From: a virus
Lineage: Duplodnaviria > Caudoviricetes
IMG/VR virus record: IMGVR_UViG_3300033072_001097
Location: 1 to 64,000 of that record
Direction: 5' to 3' (one strand)
Length of the DNA: 64,000 nucleotides
Of the stretch, positions 44,591 through 55,098 are shown piece by piece; the first letter of the stretch is position 1; each line of letters starts with the position of its first letter. Position numbers and translations under genes: made by a program. Under the pieces are notes generated by a model, which saw only the letters and a list, made by a program, of their open reading frames with translations, was not told where the DNA came from and did not search any database.

Positions 44591-45172
44591 ATGTATAACC
44601 CATATGACCTTATACCGATGGAAATAAATGGTGTTCCGACATATGGACGCCCCACAGAATTTGATTCTGAAATAACAGATTTCGAAAAAATGGAAAATGC
44701 TTTTGGCCATCCTGTTAAACCTAAGAAACTATCCACCACATGCCCAGGTTGTGGGCAGGGTTTGGAAGTGGAAGTTAAGCTGGCCGATCCACCGTTTTCT
44801 GTGATTACACATACTTGCCAATATTGCTCTCCGGAGGTCGAAGCACCTGCAGACCCGTTCAGCAATCCGCTCGAGACTGGGCGTATGGCTTTTCATGAGT
44901 TAGATCCTTTATTGCATAATCCTAATGCGCAGGTTGTTCCGCAATCGAAATCTGTAGCTGATAGGGTCGATATATCTAAGTTGGCATCTATTTCCGAGCT
45001 TCCAGAAGGCCCTCCCGAAAATTCACAACTAGTTGTGGATGAGAACTTGGTGCAAGCTCTCGAACTTAAGAAGAGCAAAGGGAAAAAGCGGAAGACCATC
45101 AAGAAGGTAGAACCAGCCGAAGGATTGGAAGAAGAACAATTTTTTGATGACGACCTGGCGGAACCAGAATGA
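44591..45172 (+). CDS. Hypothetical protein with Zn motif and acidic tail
   Basis: CPGC...CQYC. Confidence 0.6.
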   Translation: MYNPYDLIPMEINGVPTYGRPTEFDSEITDFEKMENAFGHPVKPKKLSTTCPGCGQGLEVEVKLADPPFSVITHTCQYCSPEVEAPADPFSNPLETGRMAFHELDPLLHNPNAQVVPQSKSVADRVDISKLASISELPEGPPENSQLVVDENLVQALELKKSKGKKRKTIKKVEPAEGLEEEQFFDDDLAEPE

Positions 45173-46116
45173 ATGTTATTTTCGGCTCCGGCGTAGTAGG
45201 ATTATTAGCACGAAAAATTTTGGGGCCTTCTTGGAAGGTGGTCCCATTTTATCGCAGCCGTTTCTTTTCTTTCAACCCAGCTTTAGATGATAATTTTATT
45301 ATTCGAGATGACCAGCTAGACCCATTTATTCATGATTTATACGGACAATCATTACCAATATATGTCTACAAACGTGCTTGGTCAATCGGTGGACAAATCA
45401 TCCCAGAATACAATTCTGGTTTGTGTAAAGACTGGCTTGCGAAGATATTTGGCGGAGAAATACCACCACAGAGTGAGGTATATCATGCAAACCGCATGAA
45501 CTTGTTTGTATATGATATTCGTGTCAATGGATTATATCAAAATCTAGTCAACGAATATTTGGACGACTTGAAAACTGAGGCCGCTAGAGGCGAAGTGACG
45601 GCTATAGGCGATCATTTCTTTGTGCGTGATGGTAAGCGTGAAGACTTCGACAATGCTGTTAGTACTATCCCATTAGATTCTCTTTGTAAACTAATGGGTG
45701 TCAATGTTTCTTTGCCATCCAAAACAGCCCATTACCTGCACATCGAGACAGATGTGTTGAATTTCGAGGGATATAATCAATTACTTGTTGTTGATGGTGT
45801 CTTTTCATTTTTCAAAGCGACAAACGTAGCAAGTAATAGATACCTGGTCTATTGCCATGAAGAAATACCGAATCCTGGTATCTATTTCATGGGTTTCTTG
45901 CCTAGATTTGATATTATTGATGGAACCTCGATAGAACATGCTATTCCTATGGGTTCTTGCCCCAAATTAGATAACGTGGAACGGATTGGTGTTTATTGCG
46001 TTGGTAGTTATGCTCAATGGGATTGGTGTATGGACGTAGGGAGTTGCATACTAAGACTACTAAAATACGCTCAACGTGAATTCAAGCCAGCTCCTATGAA
46101 GACCGTTTTGCCATGA
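45169..46116 (+). CDS. FAD/NAD-dependent oxidoreductase-like protein (UDP-galactopyranose mutase/amine oxidase fold)
   Basis: IFGSGVVGL, AVSTIPL, VGSYAQW...MD. Confidence 0.6.
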   Translation: MNVIFGSGVVGLLARKILGPSWKVVPFYRSRFFSFNPALDDNFIIRDDQLDPFIHDLYGQSLPIYVYKRAWSIGGQIIPEYNSGLCKDWLAKIFGGEIPPQSEVYHANRMNLFVYDIRVNGLYQNLVNEYLDDLKTEAARGEVTAIGDHFFVRDGKREDFDNAVSTIPLDSLCKLMGVNVSLPSKTAHYLHIETDVLNFEGYNQLLVVDGVFSFFKATNVASNRYLVYCHEEIPNPGIYFMGFLPRFDIIDGTSIEHAIPMGSCPKLDNVERIGVYCVGSYAQWDWCMDVGSCILRLLKYAQREFKPAPMKTVLP

Positions 46117-46925
46117 CGCAGTCGAAATATCAAGTATTTAAAGATCGTCTAAAGCATGTTGATATTCCCGACGTTGATTCCCATCCGTCGGCTCTAGAGT
46201 CATTCGATTGGTTCAATTTTGTGAGCACCGCTCCGTCGGAGGTATTTGTGCCAGATTTTATTAGTATTATTGACGTTGAAGGGAAAGAGACTGTCCGCGA
46301 ACGACATCTGCGAATGTTGCGACAATTATCAAGCACTTGTACGGCTTGTTCGATGTGTGAATTGGGTTTGAAGGGTGCAGAGAGAAATGGTTCTGTGCGT
46401 GACCCACATGTGCTCAGCAATAAGAATCCATCGCCGTTTTTCATAGTAGGTCAAAATCCGGGTTGGAACGAGTTGGAGAAGCGAGAGCCATTTGTAGGGG
46501 CGGCTGGGGCCAATTTTAATGAAGAGATCGCCAAGCATGGCGTTGATAGGGATTGGTTTTATATTTCCAATACTGTCCGTTGTTATACCCAAGACAATCA
46601 AAAGCCGACACAGCGGCATATGGATAGATGCGAGCCGTTTTTGCGGATGGAAATTGGCTTAATGAAGCCAAAATTAATCATTACTTTGGGTGCGGTTGCA
46701 TTCAATCAGCTATGCCCCGATGCTGATTACAGCACGTCTTTGAAGAAAATCACCAAAAGTGTGAAGTTCGACGTATCTGTCTTTGCTATATATCACCCAT
46801 CACCGCTCAATTTTCGCGACAGTAATCGCAGGGATGCATTCAACGAACAGATCCGAGTGATGTGTGGTTTAATAAAAGCTATTAGGGCTAAGACTCTTCC
46901 GACTCTTCCTGATCAGACTTGTTGA
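46113..46925 (+). CDS. udg: Uracil-DNA glycosylase family 4
   Basis: CSMCEL, VGQNPG, PFVGAAG, SNTVRC, CEPFL..EI, YHPS. Confidence 0.9.
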   Translation: MTQSKYQVFKDRLKHVDIPDVDSHPSALESFDWFNFVSTAPSEVFVPDFISIIDVEGKETVRERHLRMLRQLSSTCTACSMCELGLKGAERNGSVRDPHVLSNKNPSPFFIVGQNPGWNELEKREPFVGAAGANFNEEIAKHGVDRDWFYISNTVRCYTQDNQKPTQRHMDRCEPFLRMEIGLMKPKLIITLGAVAFNQLCPDADYSTSLKKITKSVKFDVSVFAIYHPSPLNFRDSNRRDAFNEQIRVMCGLIKAIRAKTLPTLPDQTC

Positions 46926-47322
46926 ATGGGATGAATACGTAGCACGGTTCACCACCAATCCTTTTGCGGACAATGGCGTATGGATTTCCTTTGTCTCGCA
47001 GTATTTTCTTCATGCGTAGAGTGAATGCAGATATATTTGGTATGGCGGTGAGGACAATGACGCCGATGTTATCGATAGAAACGCCTTGTTCACCGGCTTC
47101 TTCCAGTGCCTTATAAGCCTCCATCATGACATTGTTGACTTTATCGTCGGCTGCTTTAACTTCTTGTTTCTTTTGGTCTTTTAATGCCGCTGCTTTTTTA
47201 GCAACGGCTATGGCGGTTTCTAATTCTTTCTGGGCTTCCCCTACTAGCCCCACCACGTCTTCGTTGATCAAATCACTAATATTAAATCCAAGATCGATTT
47301 CAATGATAGATACTTTTGTCAT
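46888..47322 (-). CDS. Hypothetical protein (possible winged-helix C-terminus)
   Basis: Coherent ORF on the opposite strand. Confidence 0.55.
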   Translation of the reverse strand: MTKVSIIEIDLGFNISDLINEDVVGLVGEAQKELETAIAVAKKAAALKDQKKQEVKAADDKVNNVMMEAYKALEEAGEQGVSIDNIGVIVLTAIPNISAFTLRMKKILRDKGNPYAIVRKRIGGEPCYVFIPFNKSDQEESEES

Positions 47323-47348
47323 TGGTATACTTTCTGGAGGGTAGTTGA

Positions 47349-48164
47349 ATGTCGCAATGTATCTACTGCGGTAGTTCTAAAAATTTAAACACATCGTTGA
47401 CCATCACGCTGGATAATGGTAGTAAGCACACAGTTGATATTTGTGATGAGCACGCAGAGGACGCAAGCGTCAAAACTGCTAAGGCTGCGTTCTTGGAAAA
47501 GCAAGATAAGATTAAACAATTATTAGAGCAGGCCAAGGCGTTGGGTCTAAATGTATCCGAGACAAGCGGTGGTCTATTGATTGCCGAAACGACGACTCCA
47601 GAGAGCACATCACGATGGGGCGGTATAGAAAGATCGCCAGATGCAGATCTAATCCCAGAAGCGGTCGAGCAGCAAGTCCCAAAACCGCAACCGGCCATAG
47701 AGATGGAAGACGGATTTGTATCGACAGAATTTGTAGACAGACAACGGAATATCACCAGCGTTGGTGGTAATACTATATCTGGTAGTGTCCAATCGTATTC
47801 TAGTTATGACACGTCTGATGTTAGAGCCAAATTGCCTGAAAATGCCCTCAAAGGAAAAGTGAAGATGGGTATTGTGGAAGGCCGCGAAGGCCAACCATTG
47901 GCTTTGCCACAGCAGCGAGTAGATGGCACTGGTACAACGCGGATCAATATTTCTAAAGCCGAAGACGATAGAAAGTTGCAAGAGCGTTTCAAAAAGATGG
48001 CCCAAAGCTCTATGCAAGACCAAGCTCCGGACTTTGCACGATCTGGGTACCAAAATAGCACCGCCACCTGTCCTATATGTCGTGGGGATGGGGCCGTAAA
48101 AATGGGCAAAAATATGCAATCATGCCCTAAGTGTAGTGGTAGCGGGATTATATCGATTCTTTAG
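47349..48164 (+). CDS. Hypothetical protein with DnaJ-type Zn finger at the C-terminus
   Basis: CIYC..CDEH; CPICRGDG...CPKCSGSG. Confidence 0.65.
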   Translation: MSQCIYCGSSKNLNTSLTITLDNGSKHTVDICDEHAEDASVKTAKAAFLEKQDKIKQLLEQAKALGLNVSETSGGLLIAETTTPESTSRWGGIERSPDADLIPEAVEQQVPKPQPAIEMEDGFVSTEFVDRQRNITSVGGNTISGSVQSYSSYDTSDVRAKLPENALKGKVKMGIVEGREGQPLALPQQRVDGTGTTRINISKAEDDRKLQERFKKMAQSSMQDQAPDFARSGYQNSTATCPICRGDGAVKMGKNMQSCPKCSGSGIISIL

Positions 48165-48173
48165 GAGTCAGCA

Positions 48174-49973
48174 GTGGTAGACCAATCAGTTGTGGGGGCA
48201 CCCATTGTCGATACAGCTCAATGGCTGAAAGATCTACGTCAGGGCTTTTGGCGTGGTCAGTCTTTTGCGCATATTGACGAAACATTGCAGAAATTGTTGT
48301 TTGCGAAATTCTTCGCAGAAGATCGTGGTCTACAATTCACTGCTGATAATTATATAAATATTTATGATGATGCTCGCGAAGATTATCACTCCATGACGAG
48401 CGTAGACATGGGTGGCTTACCTGAGTCTATGGTAGCCGAGCCATATAATTATCTAAACACAATTGAAATGATCGGGCAGGCACAAGTTTCTGCCGACCCC
48501 GGCATTTGGCATATCATTAATAATCTATGGACTGAACGTAGTCTACGCAAAGAGGATGGCCAATATTTTACCCCATATGCTATCAAGCGGTTTATGTGCG
48601 AGATATACCCTCCAACCGTAGACACCAAAATTTGTGATCCATGCGGTGGGAGTGGTGGATTTGTCATCATGGCGGCAGATATGCTGCCGCAGATTGAACC
48701 AGATAAATTTTACTATTACGATGCCGACGGCGAAAAAATCGTCAGAGTAGCCAAACGAGCATTCGTGACTTATAAACATCATACCACATTACAGAATCTT
48801 ATTGGTATAAATATTGCTGTCCATAATTCACTGGACGACGTATGGCACTGCAAAATGGATCGGATTTATACCAATGTTCCTTTTGGACATAAAGTAACTG
48901 CGGCCACCAGGAGTAAAAACGGGCAACGTCTGTTGTTGGGTTATGATGTTGGTAGAGAGAAATCCAGTGAATTATCACAATTATTGTTTATCGAGAAGTG
49001 TATCAATCAATTGGAAGACGGCGGTCTATTCGCCACTGTAGTTGATAAAGGTATTGTTACTAATCATAAATATACCCGCGAACGAGCGATATTGGCTAAG
49101 AAAGCTGCTTTGGAATTAGTTGTAGAATTACCAGCGGCTGCTTTTGAACATTTTGCTGGGACCACATTTCCAACATTCTTGTTGTTCTTTCGGAAAGGTG
49201 TACCCACTTTCACCAGATATGAGAAGGTACAAAATATTGGATATTCTGCAACCAGTTATAATATTGTCGATGAGAATGCCGGTCCTTTCGACTCTAGTCT
49301 AGAAGACGTGAATTATAACAATTGTGATTTATCCACGATCGTGCAGCGTTGGCGGTCTAAACAATGGCCGAACCATCCGGATAGCGATCATGATTTCCCA
49401 TACTCTACTACAGAATCTGGGAATTGGTTATGGGGGTATTGGAAATATGAGAGTGTTCAATCTCAACGATTGCGAGATGTAGCTCAATTGGTTACGGCTA
49501 AGTGGAGTGGTGAAAACGACCGCAATCCTACTGTTGATCGCAAATATCGATATGTCAAAGAAACGCATTTAAAGCCGAAAGCGAAATCCAAGACTAGAGC
49601 ACTTAAAGCCAATTGTTTATTGATGAGTCGGTTATTGTCTGGGAAGCAAACGCCCGCTTGTGGTGTAATTCCCGAAAAATATCACGATGCCGGATGTACA
49701 AATGAGAATTATATTATCAAAGCCGATGATACACATTGGTTGGTAACGATTTGGTATCTGATAAACTTTGACAATTATTGTCATGAATATCTATGGTCGC
49801 ACTGCCGTGGCCAGGGACGTGCCCGTATTATGGTGGATGATTTGCTGGCTATGCCTATTCGTGAGTTGACTACCGAGGAGATGAGTCGGGCAAAAGATTT
49901 GATCGATAGTTTGAATAACAAAATGTGGATAGACGAAATTATAGAACAGAAATTTCATTGTATTAATAAATAA
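48174..49973 (+). CDS. N6-adenine DNA methyltransferase (HsdM-like) fused to a TRD-like C-terminus
   Basis: GQYFTP, DPCGGSGGF, TNVPFG; C-terminal RLRDVA...RGQGRARI..DDLLAMPI. Confidence 0.8.
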   Translation: MVDQSVVGAPIVDTAQWLKDLRQGFWRGQSFAHIDETLQKLLFAKFFAEDRGLQFTADNYINIYDDAREDYHSMTSVDMGGLPESMVAEPYNYLNTIEMIGQAQVSADPGIWHIINNLWTERSLRKEDGQYFTPYAIKRFMCEIYPPTVDTKICDPCGGSGGFVIMAADMLPQIEPDKFYYYDADGEKIVRVAKRAFVTYKHHTTLQNLIGINIAVHNSLDDVWHCKMDRIYTNVPFGHKVTAATRSKNGQRLLLGYDVGREKSSELSQLLFIEKCINQLEDGGLFATVVDKGIVTNHKYTRERAILAKKAALELVVELPAAAFEHFAGTTFPTFLLFFRKGVPTFTRYEKVQNIGYSATSYNIVDENAGPFDSSLEDVNYNNCDLSTIVQRWRSKQWPNHPDSDHDFPYSTTESGNWLWGYWKYESVQSQRLRDVAQLVTAKWSGENDRNPTVDRKYRYVKETHLKPKAKSKTRALKANCLLMSRLLSGKQTPACGVIPEKYHDAGCTNENYIIKADDTHWLVTIWYLINFDNYCHEYLWSHCRGQGRARIMVDDLLAMPIRELTTEEMSRAKDLIDSLNNKMWIDEIIEQKFHCINK

Positions 49974-50065
49974 TCATTTCTAATTTTCCATGTATTTCAT
50001 AATACGAACTTACTATTTGATTCTTGTGTCTAAGATACGGTTAATCTAACAAATCGGAGGATATC

Positions 50066-50812
50066 ATGCCTAAGTTATGTCAAATCACTGCTCTACTGAC
50101 TGGCAAGAAGACTGCCGCTGTCAAGGCTCTCACTGACATTTACCATCGGTTCCAAAAGCCAGTGTTGTTCTATGGTCTCACCAAGCGATATCAGCCGTTG
50201 GATGAAGAGGGCGAGACTTTCCCGGACGAGCGGCAAAACGTTCAGCAGACTGCCCAAGGTTGCTTGGCGGAAATTAGGGAAGTATTGGTGAATGTGTTGG
50301 ATTTGGTGGCGACTCAAGACAAGACCAATGCCGTCGCGAAAGCCGATGTGAAGGTCGATGGGCGTGCTATTTTAACGGAGGTGCCGGTGACGCATCTTCT
50401 GTTCTTGGAGAAACAATTGACCGATTTGCATACGGCTTTAAGTGCGCTTCCGATTCTGGAGCCGCAAGAGACGTGGGTCTATGACGCGAACGTGGCTTGC
50501 TACAAGTCCGAACCGACTGAAACCAACAAGACTAAGAAGATTCCTCGAACACATGTGAAGTACGAGGCAACTGAGCAACACCCGGCTCAAACTGAAATGT
50601 ACCACGAAGACGTGGTGATTGGCCGATGGAAGGTTATCAAGTTCAGTGCAGCACTTCCTTGGCAAGAAAAGCGGGAATTGTTGGCTCGTCTTGAAAAATT
50701 ACGAGATAGCGTGAAGATAGCCCGCGAAGAGGCTAATTCGATTGAAGCGGTGCTAGTAAATACTTTTGGAGATGCGATTTTCGACTACATCTTGTCTCCT
50801 GGGACACGATAG
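50066..50812 (+). CDS. Conserved uncharacterised helical protein directly upstream of the ncRNA
   Basis: YQPLDEEGE, KADVKVDG, VPVTHLLFLEKQL, TKKIPR.HVKYEATEQHPAQ, KFSAALP, AREEAN; GGAGG RBS. Confidence 0.85.
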   Translation: MPKLCQITALLTGKKTAAVKALTDIYHRFQKPVLFYGLTKRYQPLDEEGETFPDERQNVQQTAQGCLAEIREVLVNVLDLVATQDKTNAVAKADVKVDGRAILTEVPVTHLLFLEKQLTDLHTALSALPILEPQETWVYDANVACYKSEPTETNKTKKIPRTHVKYEATEQHPAQTEMYHEDVVIGRWKVIKFSAALPWQEKRELLARLEKLRDSVKIAREEANSIEAVLVNTFGDAIFDYILSPGTR

Positions 50813-50821
50813 TTAACAAAA

Positions 50822-51200
50822 GAGTGCAAGCTTAATCTTAATTTCAAGCTTAAATAGGAAAAAGTGCAGGTTCGACTCCTGCCCCCGCCACTTTCAATTA
50901 TGGCGGGGTAGCCCAAGTGGCAGAGGCAACCCTAAATGAGACTTAGGCTATCACTCCAAGTTGACAACCTGGATGGTCAGTCGTCCAATCAAGGGCCAAG
51001 TTCAATAACCACGTAAATGCCAGTGCAATTCCGGCCCCCGCCTCTTGTGGGCAGAACTTATAAGGCGGGGTGGTCTAAAAGAACGACGATGTGGCGATAA
51101 ACTAAAGCTTGGCTTAAACGGAAATAGTGGACGACTGGTGATTATCACTAGTCCAACCGCCCCGGCCTTATGTGATAAAAAGGTCGGGGCACTTTTATTT
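50822..51200 (+). ncRNA. Structured RNA with two circularly permuted tRNA-like modules (YrlA-like topology)
   Basis: Module 1: T arm 50866-50882, closed acceptor stem 50883-50908, D arm 50911-50927. Module 2: 51019-51087. Enclosing stems and a terminator. Confidence 0.75.
51159..51200 (+). terminator. Intrinsic terminator
   Basis: GCCCCGGCCTT/AAGGTCGGGGC stem followed by ACTTTTATTT. Confidence 0.75.
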
Positions 51201-51232
51201 CAGAATATATTATAGCGAAGAAAATTAGCAGA

Positions 51233-51475
51233 TTATAATCGAATAGCCCCGGAACGTCGTTCCAACCCCAAATATTGCCTATGCCGTTGTTTCTTAGGAA
51301 TCCCGGTAGGCATTAGGGTAGCACCGGCTGTACTAGCACTGGCATCATGACCAGTACTTGGGGTATAGTTGAAGGTGGTTTGCAGATTCGGTCGCATGAA
51401 GTATGGACCGTTGGATGCTAGGGCGGTCCTGAGCTGCTGCATCATCAGATTTTCGCTGATTTGTCGCAGTTTCAT
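51233..51475 (-). CDS. Small basic hypothetical protein
   Basis: MKLRQISE; ATGA overlap. Confidence 0.55.
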   Translation of the reverse strand: MKLRQISENLMMQQLRTALASNGPYFMRPNLQTTFNYTPSTGHDASASTAGATLMPTGIPKKQRHRQYLGLERRSGAIRL

Positions 51476-52032
51476 ACTTGTCGGTTTTTAGTGTTTTCGT
51501 CTTCGCTGGGGGTTCGGCTGGGGCTGGCATTGCCTTTATCCCATTCGACATTAGCTTCAGTCGGCCAGCCTTCGACTTCTTCTATTTTGAAGTCCAGAGG
51601 TTGTTCTGGCTGGCTCATCTCTTTAATTTCATCTAACTCTGGGTGGAAGCCGAAGTCTTTTTCCGACCACTCTTTCTGTTCTTCTTTGAGTTCTTGAATG
51701 ATGGTCGGTATCCAACCGGTGGCTTTTCCCCGCTCTTCCTTTGGTATTCCTTGAGCCACCATTTCTTTTTCCATGGCGGTCTTGAAGGACGGGTCATCCA
51801 GATATTTGTAACTGTGTACTTTGCGGAATGCTTGGCATATACCATCAGCATGCACTAGATCAGATGCTCGCAAAGCGAACATTTCATCGATTTGATTATG
51901 TAGATATTCGTAGCCACGTTCGGCTGATTGTTGAGTATCATCCTTATGGATGGACAATCCTAACATGGCGTCTTGCCCGAGCATGCTATTGATTGCCTCG
52001 AGCAGTAACTGTTCTTTTTTATCGAGTGGCAT
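51472..52032 (-). CDS. Hypothetical protein
   Basis: Start MPLDKKE with GGAGG RBS. Confidence 0.65.
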   Translation of the reverse strand: MPLDKKEQLLLEAINSMLGQDAMLGLSIHKDDTQQSAERGYEYLHNQIDEMFALRASDLVHADGICQAFRKVHSYKYLDDPSFKTAMEKEMVAQGIPKEERGKATGWIPTIIQELKEEQKEWSEKDFGFHPELDEIKEMSQPEQPLDFKIEEVEGWPTEANVEWDKGNASPSRTPSEDENTKNRQV

Positions 52033-52071
52033 AATAATCCTCCGATTATTTCTTAAATTAAATTTGAGCGA

Positions 52072-52353
52072 ATGGACAAACAAATTAAAATATCTCGGTT
52101 CGATCAAGTTCGATTATTATCTACTAAGAATATCAAGTATTTATCAGCACCACCTGGCACACAAATATCCCCGCAGGGCATTTGGTCGGTGGCTGCTGTC
52201 GTCGGCGAAGAATTGTTGTTGGTAAAGAATAATGTTGTTATCAAAACACCAATCTCGGATGTGTTAAGAATAGCTAGTTACGACATTTCACGTATACTAG
52301 GTCGGTTAGGGAGGTTATCACGTGGCAAAGAAACCGGAAAAAGTGAAAGCTGA
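52072..52353 (+). CDS. Hypothetical protein
   Basis: ORF overlapping the recA start. Confidence 0.55.
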   Translation: MDKQIKISRFDQVRLLSTKNIKYLSAPPGTQISPQGIWSVAAVVGEELLLVKNNVVIKTPISDVLRIASYDISRILGRLGRLSRGKETGKSES

Positions 52354-53434
52354 TGTACCAAATAATATCAAAGATCTGCTAGATTATATGGACACCAAAT
52401 TTGGGGCCGGTGCCGTCATTAAGGGTCGGCATGCCATTATTGACGTAGACGCCTTCCCTACTGGGATCATCACCATTGATAGAGCCTTCGGGTGTGGTGG
52501 AGTCCCACTCGGTAGAATAATGGAATTATATGGAGCAGAGAGCAGCGGTAAAACCACTACGACATTGCGATTCATAGCTGCTTGCCAAAAGCACTTTTTC
52601 ACCAAAAAAGATCGCTATGGAGTGGCGGCATTCGTAGATGCTGAGCATGCTCTTGACCCTGAGTGGGCGAGTAAAAATGGTGTCGATATGGAAGAATTAA
52701 TCATATCACAACCGGATAGCGGTGAAGATGCTTTGAATATTGTGGAAGCATTCCTCAGATCCAACCAAGTGGATTTGATCATCGTTGATTCGGTAGCCGC
52801 CCTTGTGCCGAAGGCTGAATTGGAGGGGGAAGTCGGCGATCATCATGTGGGTGCTCAGGCCAGAATGATGAGTCAAGGTTTGCGGAAACTGAAGGGGGTG
52901 GCTTCTCACGCCGGGGCGACGGTGGTTTTCATCAATCAGGTACGCGAGAAAGTTGGCGTCGTTTTTGGGAATCCAGAAGTGACTCCTGGTGGGCGTGCTC
53001 TGAAATATTACGCGACAGTCCGGGCAGAAGTATCGCGTACTGGCGTCATTAAGCACAATGATGATTCCATAGGCATCAACACCAAGATCAAAATGGTTAA
53101 GAACAAGGCTGCTGCACCTTTCGCGATTGGTGAATATGATATTTGTTTCGGTAAGTCTGCTCGTCCTGTTTTCGGTATTGATCCTATTTCTGCGATGACG
53201 ATAGTTGCCGAAGAACTTAAGATATTATCTAAGAAAGGTAGTTTTTATCGTTTCGGGGATGTGTCTCTCGGAAATGGTGCGACCAATGTCGCGAATTTTT
53301 TGCGAGAAAATCCTGAAATCTATAGTCAGATTGAGCAACAAACCTATAGTAGCGTTTTTCACTGTAATGCTGCGAGAGTCGAAGACGCTTCCAGGGGTGT
53401 CGACGATATATTAGAAGAATTGGACGAAGAATAA
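52322..53434 (+). CDS. recA: RecA recombinase
   Basis: GAESSGKTT, FVDAEHALDP, SQPDSGE, IVDSVAAL, ARMMSQ, FINQ, TPGGRALK. Confidence 0.97.
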   Translation: MAKKPEKVKADVPNNIKDLLDYMDTKFGAGAVIKGRHAIIDVDAFPTGIITIDRAFGCGGVPLGRIMELYGAESSGKTTTTLRFIAACQKHFFTKKDRYGVAAFVDAEHALDPEWASKNGVDMEELIISQPDSGEDALNIVEAFLRSNQVDLIIVDSVAALVPKAELEGEVGDHHVGAQARMMSQGLRKLKGVASHAGATVVFINQVREKVGVVFGNPEVTPGGRALKYYATVRAEVSRTGVIKHNDDSIGINTKIKMVKNKAAAPFAIGEYDICFGKSARPVFGIDPISAMTIVAEELKILSKKGSFYRFGDVSLGNGATNVANFLRENPEIYSQIEQQTYSSVFHCNAARVEDASRGVDDILEELDEE

Positions 53435-53761
53435 ATGAACGCTCCTAAATACGATATAGGTGCTGTTGTTTATCTCAAGGAATCCGCTGCGATGGGTTTC
53501 TTGGAGGCGGTAGTGATTAGCGGCATCACTCACAACGGCTCCAAGTGGATGTATACTATTAGGGCTGGACGTGCTCAACCGACTGGTGTCGCCTATTACG
53601 GTGACCGTATAACTGCTGTTCATGCCAAGACGCTGTATTTCACGGAAGACGAATTTGTCACACATTGTGATGCCTTAACGTTAGCAGAGGCTAATGCCCA
53701 ACGTGCATTAGAACGCATACAATTACAAAGAGCCGGTTTGTGTCCGGATACTACTGAATAA
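53435..53761 (+). CDS. Hypothetical protein
   Basis: ORF coupled between recA and the helicase. Confidence 0.6.
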   Translation: MNAPKYDIGAVVYLKESAAMGFLEAVVISGITHNGSKWMYTIRAGRAQPTGVAYYGDRITAVHAKTLYFTEDEFVTHCDALTLAEANAQRALERIQLQRAGLCPDTTE

Positions 53762-55098
53762 TGGCTACTGACACTCTTGCAAAACTTGCCGAAGACGATG
53801 ATCAACCACACCGCCCATTTGGCCCATATGAAGAAGAAGCGATAGTCTCTCTCGCTTTAGATCACCCAGAATTTTTCACCGGCGTTGGTCGGTTCATGAA
53901 ACCAACCATGTTCAACCGGTTGGAGTGCCAATGGGTGATGGCGGAAATTCTCAATAGCTATGAGAAATATGGGGTGGTTCCTACTCGCCCCATGCTCAAG
54001 GATCGCTTATATCACTCTTTTACAGAGGACGATCCTTATGAACCAGTCATTGCTTTGGTGGAACGCCCATCAAATCCGCGAGAAATCCCGCTGGTCAAGG
54101 ATACCATGCTCAGATGGGCTAAAGATCGAGCATATGGATTGATATATAGCGAGGAGGCACAAGAAGCATATACTCGTGGAGATTACGAACATCTTGAAGA
54201 TCTGGTCAAGCAGGCCAATCGTATCGCCGATGTGGGGCAGAAAGGCTTCTGGTTCTTCGAAAATTATGAAGTCCTTTTTGAACCAGACATTATGGAGCAT
54301 CGGACTACTGGTTTTGCTAAATTAGACAGGATGTTGAATAACGGTGGTCCATCGCCGAAAGAGGTGGTGTGTTGGCTAGCCGGGACGAATGTGGGTAAAT
54401 CGATCTTACTATGTAATAACGCTATTTCGTCGCTACAGGGCATTGGTCCGGATGGAACGCCTGGACAAAATGTTTTGTTGATTACCTTTGAACTAGACAC
54501 ACTTAAAACTGCTATGCGATGTCTGGGTACTGCTACTGACATCCCTATGAATAATATTGTCGAGCATCAAGATTTTGTACGCCGCATCATTAGCAAGATG
54601 CAGAAGACGTATAACAAGCGATTTGCTATCTATGAGTGGGCTCCCGAAGAATGCAGTGTGTCTGATATCTATGCATTATTGGATAATCTATATAGAGTCC
54701 ATTCGTTCAAGCCGGATGTGATTATTATTGATTATATGGATTTGATGATTAGTCGCAATAATGCGTATAATAAGGATGATTATATTCGACAAAAACATAT
54801 AGCTGCAGAGCTACGTGGTTTAGCAAAAAATGAAAATGTTCTTCTTTTTACAGCCACGCAGACGAACAGGTCTGGTTCTAGTGGAGAAGAACTGGCGGAT
54901 ATGAACAAGGTTGCAGAGAGCTTTGGTAAACAGTTCGCTCTGGATTATGTTATTAGTCTCAACCAAAGCAAATCACAACGTTGTGCTGAACCACCACGAA
55001 TCACGATGTATATAGCTAAGAACAGAAATGGTCCACGTGCAGAACGTGTTGAATGTACAATAAATTATAACACCATGGTGGTTCGGGAGGAGATATGA
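53761..55098 (+). CDS. Replicative helicase (DnaB/T4 gp41-like)
   Basis: AGTNVGKS, ITFE, IIIDYMDL, TATQTNR, VAESF, AKNRNG. Confidence 0.9.
   Translation: MATDTLAKLAEDDDQPHRPFGPYEEEAIVSLALDHPEFFTGVGRFMKPTMFNRLECQWVMAEILNSYEKYGVVPTRPMLKDRLYHSFTEDDPYEPVIALVERPSNPREIPLVKDTMLRWAKDRAYGLIYSEEAQEAYTRGDYEHLEDLVKQANRIADVGQKGFWFFENYEVLFEPDIMEHRTTGFAKLDRMLNNGGPSPKEVVCWLAGTNVGKSILLCNNAISSLQGIGPDGTPGQNVLLITFELDTLKTAMRCLGTATDIPMNNIVEHQDFVRRIISKMQKTYNKRFAIYEWAPEECSVSDIYALLDNLYRVHSFKPDVIIIDYMDLMISRNNAYNKDDYIRQKHIAAELRGLAKNENVLLFTATQTNRSGSSGEELADMNKVAESFGKQFALDYVISLNQSKSQRCAEPPRITMYIAKNRNGPRAERVECTINYNTMVVREEI

What the first reader, a model, noticed from the sequence alone, without database searches (positions are those of the whole stretch)
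50066..51200. Conserved unknown protein followed by an ~380-nt RNA with two tandem circularly permuted tRNA mimics: candidate new RNP system
Seen: a highly paired region starts ~10 nt after the stop of the 248-aa ORF. Module 1 has a perfect T arm GCAGG-TTCGACT-CCTGC (50866-50882), then CCCCGCCA (50883-90), a 10-nt loop, TGGCGGGG (50901-08), TA, and a D arm GCC-CAAGTGGCAGA-GGC (50911-27). So the tRNA 3' half precedes the 5' half and the acceptor stem is closed by a loop. A long irregular stem encloses it (GAGTG 50822/CACTC 50952; AGCTTAA 50829/TTAGGCT 50943; TCTTA/TGAGA). Module 2 repeats the topology with different sequence: GCCAG-TGCAATT-CCGGC (51019-35, one mismatch), CCCCGCCT/AGGCGGGG (51036-43/51063-70), TG, GTC..GAC, closed by CCACGT/ATGTGG, GCCAAGTT/AGCTTGGC and a perfect 10-bp CAGTCGTCCA (50978)/TGGACGACTG (51128). 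An intrinsic terminator follows (51159-51200). Established: T arm, closed acceptor, D arm is the topology of bacterial YrlA Y RNAs, which are normally encoded beside a Ro60/TROVE gene and carry one such module. No Ro60 is visible in this window. From memory, the protein resembles a widespread uncharacterised helical family in actinobacteria and phages (unverified). Inference: a co-transcribed protein and double tRNA-elbow RNA form an RNP, possibly a decoy for anti-phage tRNA nucleases or a scaffold for tRNA-binding enzymes.
Basis: partly seen in the sequence, partly recalled or inferred. Interest (0 to 1): 0.92.

Follow-up and report, generated by a model that had tools for sequence, protein, structure and literature searches.

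The report
Double tRNA-mimic RNA beside DUF7873
Just after an unstudied phage gene (DUF7873) lies a folded RNA of about 320 bases made of two back-to-front tRNA look-alikes; the same gene-RNA pair recurs in hundreds of bacteria and phages without Ro60, the usual protein partner of such RNAs, so it is probably an undescribed RNA-protein unit tied to tRNA handling.

Summary
The ORF 50066-50812 is a full-length DUF7873 protein. The region 50822-51137 holds two different, circularly permuted tRNA mimics in the order T arm, 7-bp acceptor stem closed by a loop, D arm. Each is enclosed by its own long stem. The same pair follows DUF7873 in all but two (one lineage) of about 170 phage and bacterial loci examined. 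Covariation is heavy: 29 of 30 pairs in module 2 show double changes, and 0 of 500 shuffles reach the observed score. The RNA reaches no Rfam gathering score; YrlA matches only sub-threshold. Ro60 is absent from this record and from 5 complete phages and 2 of 5 bacterial genomes, and it is unlinked in the other 3. The Ro-binding motif is missing. No other neighbouring gene is conserved.

Module 1 looks like tRNA-Leu (D arm, A73). Both closing loops start with N73-C74, often CCA, which suggests RNase P opening and CCA maturation as shown for M. smegmatis YrlA. DUF7873 has no solved fold relative and is predicted to form a homodimer.

A Ro60-independent RNP is the best reading, but binding, processing and function are all untested. 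A phage-only decoy cannot be the general role. The scan had already found this pair on other DNA, in at least 72 genomes.

The parts
50066..50812 (+). DUF7873 protein gene (248 aa), predicted homodimer, no solved fold relative
   Evidence: Pfam PF25283 at 309 bits against a cut-off of 27. AF2 model pLDDT 90.7. No Foldseek PDB or BFVD hit at E<=0.001; VIA-align best Z 8.4, on helical hairpins only. Dimer ipSAE 0.71 against best control 0.00.
50822..50956 (+). Module 1: permuted tRNA mimic with a tRNA-Leu-like D arm and discriminator A, enclosed by a long irregular stem
   Evidence: Sequence; fold; Rfam YrlA sub-threshold match at 50865-50927; model R1 hit at 50837-50959, 43 bits. Family covariation. 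D region nearest to tRNA-Leu in 116/124 loci.
50828..50851 (+). Four tandem ARNYUN hexamers (AAGCTT AATCTT AATTTC AAGCTT) forming the 5' arm of module 1
   Evidence: Three or more tandem hexamers occur in 64/124 module-1 5' arms and in 0/124 shuffles.
50866..50927 (+). Module 1 core: T arm 50866-82, acceptor 3' strand 50883-89, closing loop 50890-50901 (starts A-C-U), acceptor 5' strand 50902-08, U8-A9, D arm 50911-27
50978..51137 (+). Module 2: second permuted tRNA mimic with a class-I-like D arm and discriminator U, enclosed by a four-segment stem. The stem carries the family's internal-loop motifs, here AAUCAA (50987-92) and CUUAAACG (51113-20).
   Evidence: model R1 hit at 50989-51119, 64 bits; covariation; motif census.
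51019..51087 (+). Module 2 core: T arm 51019-35, acceptor 51036-42 / 51064-70 closed by a 21-nt loop starting U-C-U, D arm 51073-87
51160..51201 (+). Terminator-like hairpin (CCCCGGCC / GGTCGGGG, 14-nt loop) followed by a U tract
   Evidence: MFE fold. Not listed by the consensus terminator scan because of its loop size.

Best explanation
This is a self-contained two-part unit found in both phages and bacteria. A gene for DUF7873, probably a homodimer with a fold not seen in solved structures, is followed on the same strand by a non-coding RNA of about 320 nt that is probably co-transcribed. The RNA consists of two different YrlA-like, circularly permuted tRNA mimics in tandem.

Each module keeps an intact tRNA elbow (the D-loop GG and the T-loop UUCRA) and a 7-bp acceptor stem closed by a loop. 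In place of an anticodon loop it has a long stem formed by its own 5' and 3' flanks. Module 1 imitates tRNA-Leu. Module 2 imitates a class I tRNA.

Inferred, not shown:
(i) RNase P cuts 5' of G+1, and the 3' strand is trimmed or completed to N73-CCA, as demonstrated for the 7-bp-acceptor YrlA of M. smegmatis. This would leave nicked, tRNA-like ends.
(ii) The DUF7873 dimer binds the conserved stem motifs, one module per protomer, giving a Ro60-independent particle analogous to Ro60-Y RNA.
(iii) The particle presents tRNA-shaped surfaces to tRNA-handling machinery such as processing enzymes, synthetases, nucleases or the ribosome. In phages it therefore sits inside tRNA gene arrays.

The biochemical function itself is unknown.
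For: Shown by tools:
- Family and spread of the protein. The protein is DUF7873. The family has 3768 clusters at 90% identity and 2652 at 50%.
- Modules in named phages. Two permuted modules lie downstream of the gene in phages of Arthrobacter, Gordonia, Pseudanabaena, Klebsiella and Ralstonia. At least one module is found in Vibrio and Rhizobium phages.
- Modules in wider sampling. A module pair was found in 73 loci of the 90 phage loci plus this window, with at least one module in 76 of 80 unique phage loci. 57 of 78 bacterial loci have exactly two modules and 18 more have one or three.
- Recovery by the covariance model. Model R1 recovers modules in 28 of the 30 loci where the pattern found none or one. 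Only L015 and L016, one lineage, lack any.
- Specificity. In whole-genome searches the top R1 hit in each of 5 bacterial genomes and 5 phage records lies next to DUF7873.
- Covariation. In module 2, 88% of cells are paired against 63.6% in shuffles (0/500 reach it) and 36-45% when partners are slid. 29 of 30 pairs carry double changes, including the 9-bp outer helix that played no part in locus selection. In module 1, 14 of 15 core pairs carry double changes. There are 59 and 76 distinct acceptor sequences among 124 loci, with 7/7 pairing in 118-119.
- No other conserved neighbouring gene: at most 10 of 80 loci share one.
- No Ro60. TROVE is absent from the record, from 5 of 5 complete phages and from 2 of 5 bacterial genomes. 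It lies 0.14-9 Mb from the DUF7873 locus in the other three. The Ro motif GNCGAAN0-1G occurs in only 9 and 19 of 124 loci.
- Processing signature. C74 is present in about 85-90% of both modules. NCCA occurs in 42/124 (module 1) and 35/124 (module 2), where about 2 would be expected by chance. Position -1 is a pyrimidine in about 74%, and +1 is G in 79-88%.
- tRNA-Leu likeness. The module 1 D region is nearest to tRNA-Leu in 116/124 loci and has A73 in 104/124.
- Homodimer prediction. The model supports binding but does not show it. Score 0.71, best of 3 controls 0.00. That mark was reached by 20 of 30 proteins solved as pairs of one chain and by 1 of 23 solved as single chains. The runs agree in at least 90% of contacts and the partner pLDDT is at least 88.
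- No promoter-like site lies between gene and RNA on the + strand.

From the literature: M. smegmatis YrlA, which has a 7-bp acceptor stem, is cut by RNase P and gains CCA in vivo. Most YrlA RNAs have shorter acceptor stems and stay closed (PMC4201824; bioRxiv 10.1101/312249).
Against: - There is no transcript, binding or processing datum for any member.
- DUF7873 is near-neutral (median pI 6.0). That is unusual for a general RNA binder.
- Adjacency and co-orientation are equally expected if the RNA is only a 3' element of the mRNA.
- One locus (L134) carries the RNA on the opposite strand, and one lineage (L015/L016) lacks it.
- A stand-alone permuted module exists in a tRNA array 125 kb from the DUF7873 gene of one genome, so such modules can work without an adjacent partner.
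- The loci sampled are mostly the closest 160 relatives. Only about ten distant ones were examined.
- An earlier in-scan check priced the RNP reading at 22/100.
Confidence: 0.5

Rival explanations
1. The RNA is a trans-acting tRNA mimic in its own right. It could be a sponge, decoy or regulator for tRNA-binding factors such as RNase P, CCA-adding enzyme, LeuRS, EF-Tu or anticodon nucleases. DUF7873 would be functionally linked, for example as an enzyme of the same pathway or a maturation factor, but not a stable subunit.
For: The tRNA elbows are intact and the ends look like NCCA. A stand-alone module occurs in a 41-tRNA array. DUF7873 has pI ~6 and many invariant polar residues (H172, E181, D182, K158, R220, E221, N224), which suggests an active site or a specific pocket.
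Against: The near-universal tight linkage and co-orientation with DUF7873, with no other conserved neighbour, is stronger than is usual for merely pathway-linked genes. The long stem motifs conserved outside the tRNA-like core look like a dedicated binding site.
Confidence: 0.2
2. The two tRNA-like structures are cis-acting 3' elements of the DUF7873 mRNA. They would serve as RNase P/Z processing signals and as 3'-end protection, as with tRNA-like structures that define 3' ends of other transcripts, and would have no function of their own.
For: The RNA is always downstream and on the same strand, starting about 10-40 nt after the stop codon. No promoter-like site lies between gene and RNA. The unit is embedded in tRNA arrays or follows a tRNA-Leu gene, so polycistronic tRNA-type processing is plausible.
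Against: Two distinct module types, about 30-bp enclosing stems with specific internal-loop motifs, and hexamer-repeat arms are conserved across at least seven phyla and many phage groups. That is far more than a processing signal needs. L134 has the RNA in the opposite orientation.
Confidence: 0.15
3. They are ordinary Ro60-dependent Y RNAs (a YrlA/YrlB-type pair) that use a Ro60 encoded elsewhere, which for the phage means the host's Ro60.
For: The topology is that of YrlA. Full-length sub-threshold YrlA matches of 33-37 bits occur in relatives. Ro60 loci also carry two tandem Y RNAs (PMC4201824). 3 of 5 carrier genomes do have TROVE genes.
Against: All scores are far below the Rfam gathering score of 69. 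The Ro-binding motif is absent in over 85% of loci. No TROVE is found in 2 of 5 bacterial genomes or in 5 of 5 complete phages. In genomes with Ro60, separate weaker R1 hits lie about 1 kb from the TROVE gene, so these genomes have their own YrlA as well.
Confidence: 0.06
4. They are genuine permuted pre-tRNA genes that mature into working tRNAs, or a two-piece tmRNA-like rescue RNA with DUF7873 as its SmpB-like partner.
For: 7-bp acceptor stems, N73-CCA and Leu-type identity features are present. There is a sub-threshold permuted-tmRNA match. The module 1 5' arm reads as [KR][LF] dipeptide repeats in one frame.
Against: There is no anticodon loop; the anticodon-stem analogue runs on into a conserved long helix. 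ARAGORN finds no tRNA or tmRNA. Bacteria are not known to have the circularising splicing pathway (10.1101/312249). The peptide-like frame has no consistent start or stop, and it always uses AGR, never CGN, even at 65% GC, which points to an RNA-level motif. Carrier phages such as Phendrix have a normal tmRNA as well.
Confidence: 0.04

Closest known systems
YrlA-class bacterial and mycobacteriophage Y RNAs with Ro60/Rsr (Rfam RF02553; Chen et al. 2014, PMC4201824; Wang et al. 2018, bioRxiv 10.1101/312249)
   Same: Circularly permuted tRNA mimic: T arm, loop-closed acceptor stem, D arm, and an anticodon-stem analogue formed by the 5' and 3' ends that continues into a protein-binding stem. The RNA is encoded beside its presumed protein partner. 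Ro60 loci often carry two tandem RNAs. The M. smegmatis member has a 7-bp acceptor stem, is cut by RNase P and receives CCA.
   Different: No Ro60 is nearby, and often none in the genome. The Ro motif GNCGAAN0-1G is absent. Scores are 22-37 bits against a gathering score of 69. Both tandem units carry a complete tRNA-like domain. Both acceptors are 7 bp as a rule. The partner is DUF7873, an unrelated ~245-aa protein. Module 1 carries tRNA-Leu features and hexamer-repeat arms.
SPFH/Band-7-associated 'novel tRNA-like molecule' of RNA-repair operons (Burroughs and Aravind 2016, NAR 44:8525). Recalled from memory and from an earlier scan note; the paper is not held in the library.
   Same: The idea of a tRNA-like non-coding RNA partnered with a scaffold protein other than Ro60.
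   Different: DUF7873 gives no Band_7 Pfam hit. No RtcB or RNA-ligase neighbours are conserved. I could not check that paper's RNA against this one.
Two-piece (permuted) tmRNA with SmpB (Rfam RF04321)
   Same: The gene order puts the T arm and 3' acceptor strand with NCCA before the 5' acceptor strand. The intervening loop is removed to give a nicked tRNA-like domain, and there is a dedicated small protein partner.
   Different: 20.7 bits against a gathering score of 47. This RNA has a full D stem, no pseudoknots or tag reading frame, two tRNA-like domains, and a partner unrelated to SmpB.
Circularly permuted tRNA genes of Cyanidioschyzon merolae and some archaea (as discussed in 10.1101/312249)
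   Same: The 3' half precedes the 5' half. The acceptor stem is initially closed by a loop that RNase P/Z opens.
   Different: Those mature into real tRNAs with anticodon loops through a splicing endonuclease and ligase. Here there is no anticodon loop, and the termini form conserved long stems.

Membership tests
YrlA / bacterial Y RNA (Rfam RF02553) | tRNA-like domain in the permuted order T arm, closed acceptor stem, D arm | tested here: met
YrlA / bacterial Y RNA (Rfam RF02553) | Reaches Rfam's gathering score (69 bits) | tested here: not met
   22.1 bits in the window. 33-37 bits in phage and bacterial relatives. No match at gathering threshold.
YrlA / bacterial Y RNA (Rfam RF02553) | Encoded within about 4 kb of a Ro60/TROVE gene on the same strand (criterion of Chen et al. 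2014) | tested here: not met
   No TROVE in the 92.5-kb record (incomplete) or in 5 complete carrier phages. In 3 bacterial genomes TROVE lies 0.14-9 Mb away, and it is absent from 2.
YrlA / bacterial Y RNA (Rfam RF02553) | GNCGAAN0-1G motif near the 5' end (presumed Ro60 contact) | tested here: not met
   Present upstream of module 1 in 9/124 loci and of module 2 in 19/124. Absent in the window.
YrlA / bacterial Y RNA (Rfam RF02553) | Bound by Ro60/Rsr | not testable with these tools
   Needs immunoprecipitation.
tRNA, or permuted tRNA gene that matures to a tRNA | Anticodon stem closed by a 7-nt anticodon loop | tested here: not met
   ARAGORN finds none. The anticodon-stem analogue continues into a long conserved helix.
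Permuted tmRNA (Rfam RF04321) | Gathering score of 47 bits; tag reading frame with pseudoknots | tested here: not met
   20.7 bits, covering only the T arm and acceptor. ARAGORN finds no tmRNA. The peptide-like frame has no consistent ends.
DUF7873 (Pfam PF25283) | Full-length match above the curated cut-off | tested here: met
   309 bits against 27, residues 1-243 of 248.
Ro60 / TROVE protein | TROVE domain (HEAT-repeat ring) in the adjacent protein | tested here: not met
   Pfam gives only DUF7873. The model has 4 long helices plus a beta sheet. Fold searches list no Ro60, which on its own is inconclusive.

The most novel reading that the evidence does not exclude
After RNase P opening and CCA maturation, module 1 (tRNA-Leu-type D arm, A73, no anticodon needed by LeuRS) is aminoacylated. 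The DUF7873 dimer would then use or sense the charged double tRNA mimic outside normal decoding. It could, for example, act as an aminoacyl donor or acceptor platform, report charging or tRNA-processing status, or enter the ribosome as a rescue or regulatory particle. That would make it a third aminoacylatable tRNA-mimic system, after tmRNA and the viral tRNA-like structures.
Probability: 0.1. Interest if true: 0.95.

Novelty: new variant of a known kind. Interest (0 to 1): 0.8.

Why it matters
Bacterial Y RNAs are the only described class of cellular tRNA mimics with a closed acceptor stem, and they are defined by their partnership with Ro60. Here the same RNA architecture is doubled and given tRNA-grade 7-bp acceptors and NCCA-like ends. 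It travels with a completely different, uncharacterised protein in thousands of sequence clusters from soil bacteria (Streptomyces, Nocardia, Myxococcus, Planctomycetota, Chloroflexota) and from large phages, where it sits among tRNA genes.

If the pair is an RNP, it is a second, independent way of building a protein-tRNA-mimic particle. It would then be a handle on what tRNA mimicry is for in bacteria, which is still an open question for YrlA itself. It would also give DUF7873 a function and add a large structured RNA family that Rfam lacks. Cultured hosts and phages (Gordonia terrae phages, Arthrobacter phages, M. xanthus, Streptomyces) make it directly testable.

Tried and rejected
- Rfam at gathering threshold on the window: nothing. 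At permissive E-values on the window and on 11 related loci, only sub-threshold YrlA, tmRNA or chance matches.
- ARAGORN on the window: nothing.
- PHROGs, PADLOC and NCBIfam for the protein: no family.
- PDB sequence profile search: nothing below E 0.05.
- Fold searches. Foldseek against PDB and BFVD gave no match at E<=0.001. VIA-align wide gave a best Z of 8.4 on generic helical hairpins, within the range the tool says is common for helical models.
- ESM Atlas: only DUF7873 clusters.
- Literature: no paper contains 'DUF7873'. Searches for tandem or double tRNA-like RNAs and for phage Y RNAs found only the Ro60/YrlA papers and a 2026 preprint on three other tRNA-mimic families (skipping-rope, DUF2693-FD, salivarius-1), which are different RNAs. 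Burroughs and Aravind 2016 could not be read.
- Small-ORF reading of the module 1 5' arm ([KR][LF] repeats, in frame with the DUF7873 stop in this window). Considered and set aside: no consistent start or stop, and exclusive use of AGR/AAR triplets even at 65% GC.
- Alignment-free cognate versus non-cognate duplex test of the enclosing stems. Cognate pairs were better (rank fraction 0.23-0.44), but the test is confounded by GC content and relatedness, so I did not rely on it.
- Fixed-offset test of the anticodon-stem analogue: blurred by variable D-arm ends. In A3 this helix is only 54% paired because of a one-column alignment offset.
- Extra R1 hits elsewhere in genomes: mostly artefacts of adjacent tRNA genes, for example two identical tRNA-Asn genes.
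- The 50%-representative search listed only close relatives in its top 150, so it did not provide distant loci.
Full report
**What is in the window.**

The ORF at 50066-50812 encodes a 248-aa protein that matches Pfam DUF7873 over its whole length (E 3e-92, 309 bits). Ten bases after its stop codon a densely paired region begins.

Module 1 spans 50822-50956:
- T arm GCAGG-TTCGACT-CCTGC at 50866-82.
- 7-nt strand CCCCGCC at 50883-89.
- A 12-nt loop beginning A-C-U.
- The complementary strand GGCGGGG at 50902-08.
- U-A, then a D arm GCC-CAAGTGGCAGA-GGC at 50911-27.
- An enclosing irregular stem made from the flanks: GAGTG/CACTC, AGCTTAA/TTAGGCT, TCTTA/TGAGA.

Module 2 spans 50978-51137 and repeats this topology with a different T arm, D arm and flanks. 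Its outer stem is a perfect 10 bp (50978-87 / 51128-37). A hairpin followed by a U tract sits at 51160-51201.

The 393-nt stretch folds at -131.8 kcal/mol, 4.4 sd better than dinucleotide shuffles. ARAGORN finds no tRNA or tmRNA, and Rfam finds nothing at gathering thresholds in the whole window. At permissive thresholds the only matches are YrlA (22 bits, gathering score 69) and permuted tmRNA (20.7 bits, gathering score 47), both on the module 1 core.

**The pair is conserved in phages.**

The window comes from an IMG/VR virus record of 92.5 kb, estimated 25% complete. tblastn finds DUF7873 in 75 cultured-phage records. The hosts are Arthrobacter, Gordonia, Rhodococcus, Pseudanabaena, Microcoleus, Vibrio, Rhizobium, Klebsiella/Serratia and Ralstonia.

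In every annotated example I opened, the gene is followed by an unannotated gap of 400-1160 nt. The gene usually sits inside or beside a tRNA gene array.

I wrote a strict pattern: a 5-bp T stem with a UUCRA-type loop, a 7-nt strand, a loop, a complementary 7-nt strand, 2 nt, then a D arm. It finds two modules about 150 nt apart in these gaps. It finds the pair in 73 loci of the 90 phage loci plus this window.

As a control, the pattern hits 146 times in 56 kb downstream of the genes (76 of 80 unique loci). It hits 1-3 times in equal lengths of coding sequence or shuffled sequence, and 9 times on the opposite strand.

**The pair is also conserved in bacteria.**

They include Streptomyces, Nocardia, Dactylosporangium, Actinomadura, Myxococcus xanthus, Planctomycetota, Chloroflexota, Deinococcales, Armatimonadota and Blastocatellia.

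In the 80 loci fetched, 57 of 78 with enough downstream sequence have exactly two modules by the strict pattern, and 18 more have one or three. All-against-all clustering of neighbouring ORFs shows no other conserved gene; the best cluster is shared by 10 of 80 loci. Those neighbours are ordinary and unrelated: an ABC transporter, a transglutaminase, an ATP-grasp enzyme.

The conserved unit is therefore DUF7873 plus the RNA, and nothing else.

**Structure and covariation.**

On a MAFFT alignment of 51 module 1 sequences, RNAalifold recovers the T arm, acceptor stem and D arm. 14 of 15 pairs show compensatory double changes.

Anchored alignments of 104-114 sequences add the enclosing stems. For module 1 these are GGAGCG/CGCUCC and AGCUGA/UCAGAUU. 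For module 2 there are four helices of 6, 6, 9 and 5 bp around a conserved internal loop, AUCGA on the 5' side and UUAAACG on the 3' side. Those motifs are present in 102 and 103 of 124 loci.

A formal count on a 30-sequence module 2 alignment gave these results (A3):

| Measure | Value |
|---|---|
| Cells paired, observed | 88% |
| Cells paired, column shuffles | 63.6% (0 of 500 reach the observed value) |
| Cells paired, partners slid by 1-3 columns | 36-45% |
| Pairs with double changes | 29 of 30 |
| Covariation score, observed vs shuffled | 0.67 vs 0.22 |

The 9-bp outer helix played no part in how I picked the loci, and it covaries at all nine pairs. Across 124 unique loci there are 59 (module 1) and 76 (module 2) different acceptor sequences, with 7/7 pairing in 118-119 loci.

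**Specificity of the association.**

I built a covariance model from module 2 (R1) and ran it over five whole bacterial genomes and five phage records.
- In every case the best hit (64-98 bits) is module 2 next to DUF7873, with module 1 beside it (34-54 bits).
- It also finds weaker hits about 1 kb from the TROVE genes of two genomes. These are presumably their genuine YrlA.
- Remaining hits lie in tRNA arrays, where the T arm and 3' acceptor strand of one tRNA abut the 5' acceptor strand and D arm of the next. Two identical tRNA-Asn genes are an example.
- In the 30 loci where the strict pattern had found no module or one, R1 recovers modules in 28. Only L015 and L016, one lineage, have none within 3 kb.
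- Distant relatives at 28-35% protein identity (Klebsiella, Ralstonia, Vibrio and Rhizobium phages) still carry one or two modules.

**Not a Ro60 system.**

- TROVE is absent from this incomplete record and from five complete carrier phages.
- It is absent from two of five carrier bacterial genomes and 0.14-9 Mb from the DUF7873 locus in the other three.
- The motif that Chen et al. associate with Ro60 binding, GNCGAAN0-1G, occurs in 9 of 124 (module 1) and 19 of 124 (module 2) upstream arms.
- The RNA scores 22-37 bits against the YrlA gathering score of 69.

By the family's own defining features this is not YrlA, although it clearly shares its architecture.

**Clues to how it works.**

*(a) The acceptor stems are tRNA-grade.* They are 7 bp, +1 is G in 79-88% of loci, and position -1 is a pyrimidine in about 74%. 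The closing loop begins with a discriminator followed by C in about 85-90% of cases. The full NCCA occurs in 42/124 (module 1) and 35/124 (module 2), where about 2 would be expected by chance. The minimal loops are 6-7 nt, such as ACCACAU and UCCACGU.

Chen et al. showed that the one YrlA with a 7-bp acceptor stem, from M. smegmatis, is cut by RNase P in vitro and in vivo and acquires CCA. Ordinary YrlA RNAs with shorter stems stay closed. I therefore infer that both loops here are opened and matured. This would turn the transcript into base-paired pieces with two tRNA-like ends. It is an inference, not an observation.

*(b) Module 1 imitates tRNA-Leu.* Its D region is closest to tRNA-Leu in 116 of 124 loci. 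In some phages it has the typical tRNA-Leu sequence UGGCGGAAUUGGUAGACGC. Its discriminator is A in 104 of 124. From memory, bacterial LeuRS relies on A73 and tertiary features rather than on the anticodon, so charging is conceivable. Six Dactylosporangium loci have a tRNA-Leu gene immediately upstream of DUF7873. Module 2 has a class I D arm, a discriminator of U or G, and no consistent isotype.

*(c) The protein.* DUF7873 models confidently (pLDDT 90.7) as four long helices plus a sheet with a long beta ribbon. The tip of the ribbon carries the invariant ATxxHPAQ motif. It has no convincing relative among solved or predicted viral structures.

A two-copy prediction supports a symmetric, extensive homodimer. 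The score is 0.71 and the best of 3 controls is 0.00. That mark was reached by 20 of 30 proteins solved as pairs of one chain and by 1 of 23 solved as single chains. The runs agree in at least 90% of contacts and the partner pLDDT is at least 88. The model supports binding but does not show it.

The ribbon tips are not in the predicted interface. Two protomers and two RNA modules make an attractive match, but this is only an inference. The protein's pI of about 6 argues against non-specific RNA binding.

*(d) Transcription.* No promoter-like site separates gene and RNA in the window. The RNA begins a median of about 30 nt after the stop codon: the T arm starts at a median of +90. Co-transcription is therefore likely.

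**Weighing the readings.**

The near-universal, co-oriented linkage with no other conserved neighbour, together with the long conserved stem motifs outside the tRNA-like cores, makes a dedicated DUF7873-RNA particle the best single explanation (0.5).

The rivals are:
- A trans-acting tRNA mimic that is only functionally linked to DUF7873 (0.2).
- A cis-acting 3' processing or stability element of the mRNA (0.15).
- Ro60-dependent Y RNAs acting with a distant or host Ro60 (0.06).
- True permuted tRNA or tmRNA-like genes (0.04).

The unit is chromosomal in hundreds of bacterial species. An anti-defence decoy therefore cannot be its general role, although phages may exploit it that way within their tRNA arrays.

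**Relation to earlier work in this scan and in print.**

The scan's notebook shows the same pair was reported from at least 72 other genomes, with the same conclusion. A later check there priced the RNP reading at 22/100 for lack of binding or transcript data. My sampling, including the covariance-model recovery, supports the pairing as a rule. It does not remove the lack of any experimental datum.

I found no paper naming DUF7873 and no Rfam family for the RNA. The nearest printed ideas are the Ro60-YrlA work (PMC4201824; 10.1101/312249) and, from memory, the SPFH/Band-7-associated tRNA-like RNA of Burroughs and Aravind 2016, which I could not read.

**Verdict.**

This is a new variant of a known kind: a Y-RNA-like tRNA mimic with a new partner and a doubled, tRNA-grade architecture. 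Interest is high because the unit is widespread, undescribed and directly testable.

Noticed in passing
window 50828-50851 and 50935-50970; all module 1 arms in related loci: The arms of module 1 are built from tandem quasi-palindromic hexamers ARNYUN, for example AAGCTT AATCTT AATTTC AAGCTT. Three or more in tandem occur in 64/124 5' arms and in 0 of 124 shuffles. In one frame they read as [KR][LF] dipeptide repeats (EHKLKLRLKL-like). In this window that frame continues from the DUF7873 stop codon. There is no consistent start or stop, and the triplets are always AGR/AAR, even at 65% GC, so an RNA-level motif is more likely. Its meaning is unexplained.
   Followed up: partly
L172:4017-4134 (-) = G004:C1, within 9149500-9158500: A Chloroflexia chromosome carries a 41-tRNA gene array. 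Between its tRNA-Met and tRNA-Arg lies a single stand-alone permuted tRNA-like module whose acceptor stem is closed by the loop ACCAGC (A73 plus CCA). It is 125 kb from the DUF7873 locus, in a genome with no TROVE hit.
   Followed up: partly
L098, L100, L102, L105, L110, L113 (Dactylosporangium), about 100-500 nt upstream of DUF7873: A tRNA-Leu gene lies directly upstream of DUF7873 on the same strand in six Dactylosporangium species. This echoes the tRNA-Leu-like features of module 1.
   Followed up: no
L134:5852-6101 (-); L114:6215-7031 (+): In one Ktedonobacter locus the RNA lies on the strand opposite to DUF7873. In one Ktedonobacterales locus four module hits suggest a duplicated RNA.
   Followed up: no
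L005:1072-1600 (+) (Gordonia phage Phendrix, MN096369.1): A full-length tmRNA (Rfam 89 bits) lies in the tRNA array. It is not among the annotated features listed for that stretch.
   Followed up: no
L115, L133, L165, L166, L168 at about 5753: ARAGORN calls a 'tRNA' (Ser, Phe, Val or undetermined) at the very start of the DUF7873-associated RNA in some bacterial loci. Parts of this RNA may therefore be mis-annotated as tRNA genes in public genomes.
   Followed up: no
window 45169-55098: The unit sits in a replication and recombination block: a UDG-superfamily protein, an N6 DNA methylase, then DUF7873 and the RNA, then RecA and a DnaB-like helicase. Unlike most phage relatives, no tRNA gene lies in the 64-kb window.
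   Followed up: no
L174:2274-2332 (+) = G004:C1, within 7699000-7703500: There is a 53-bit partial R1 hit (T arm plus closed acceptor stem) with no tRNA call and no TROVE in the genome. It may be another kind of closed-acceptor tRNA mimic.
   Followed up: no
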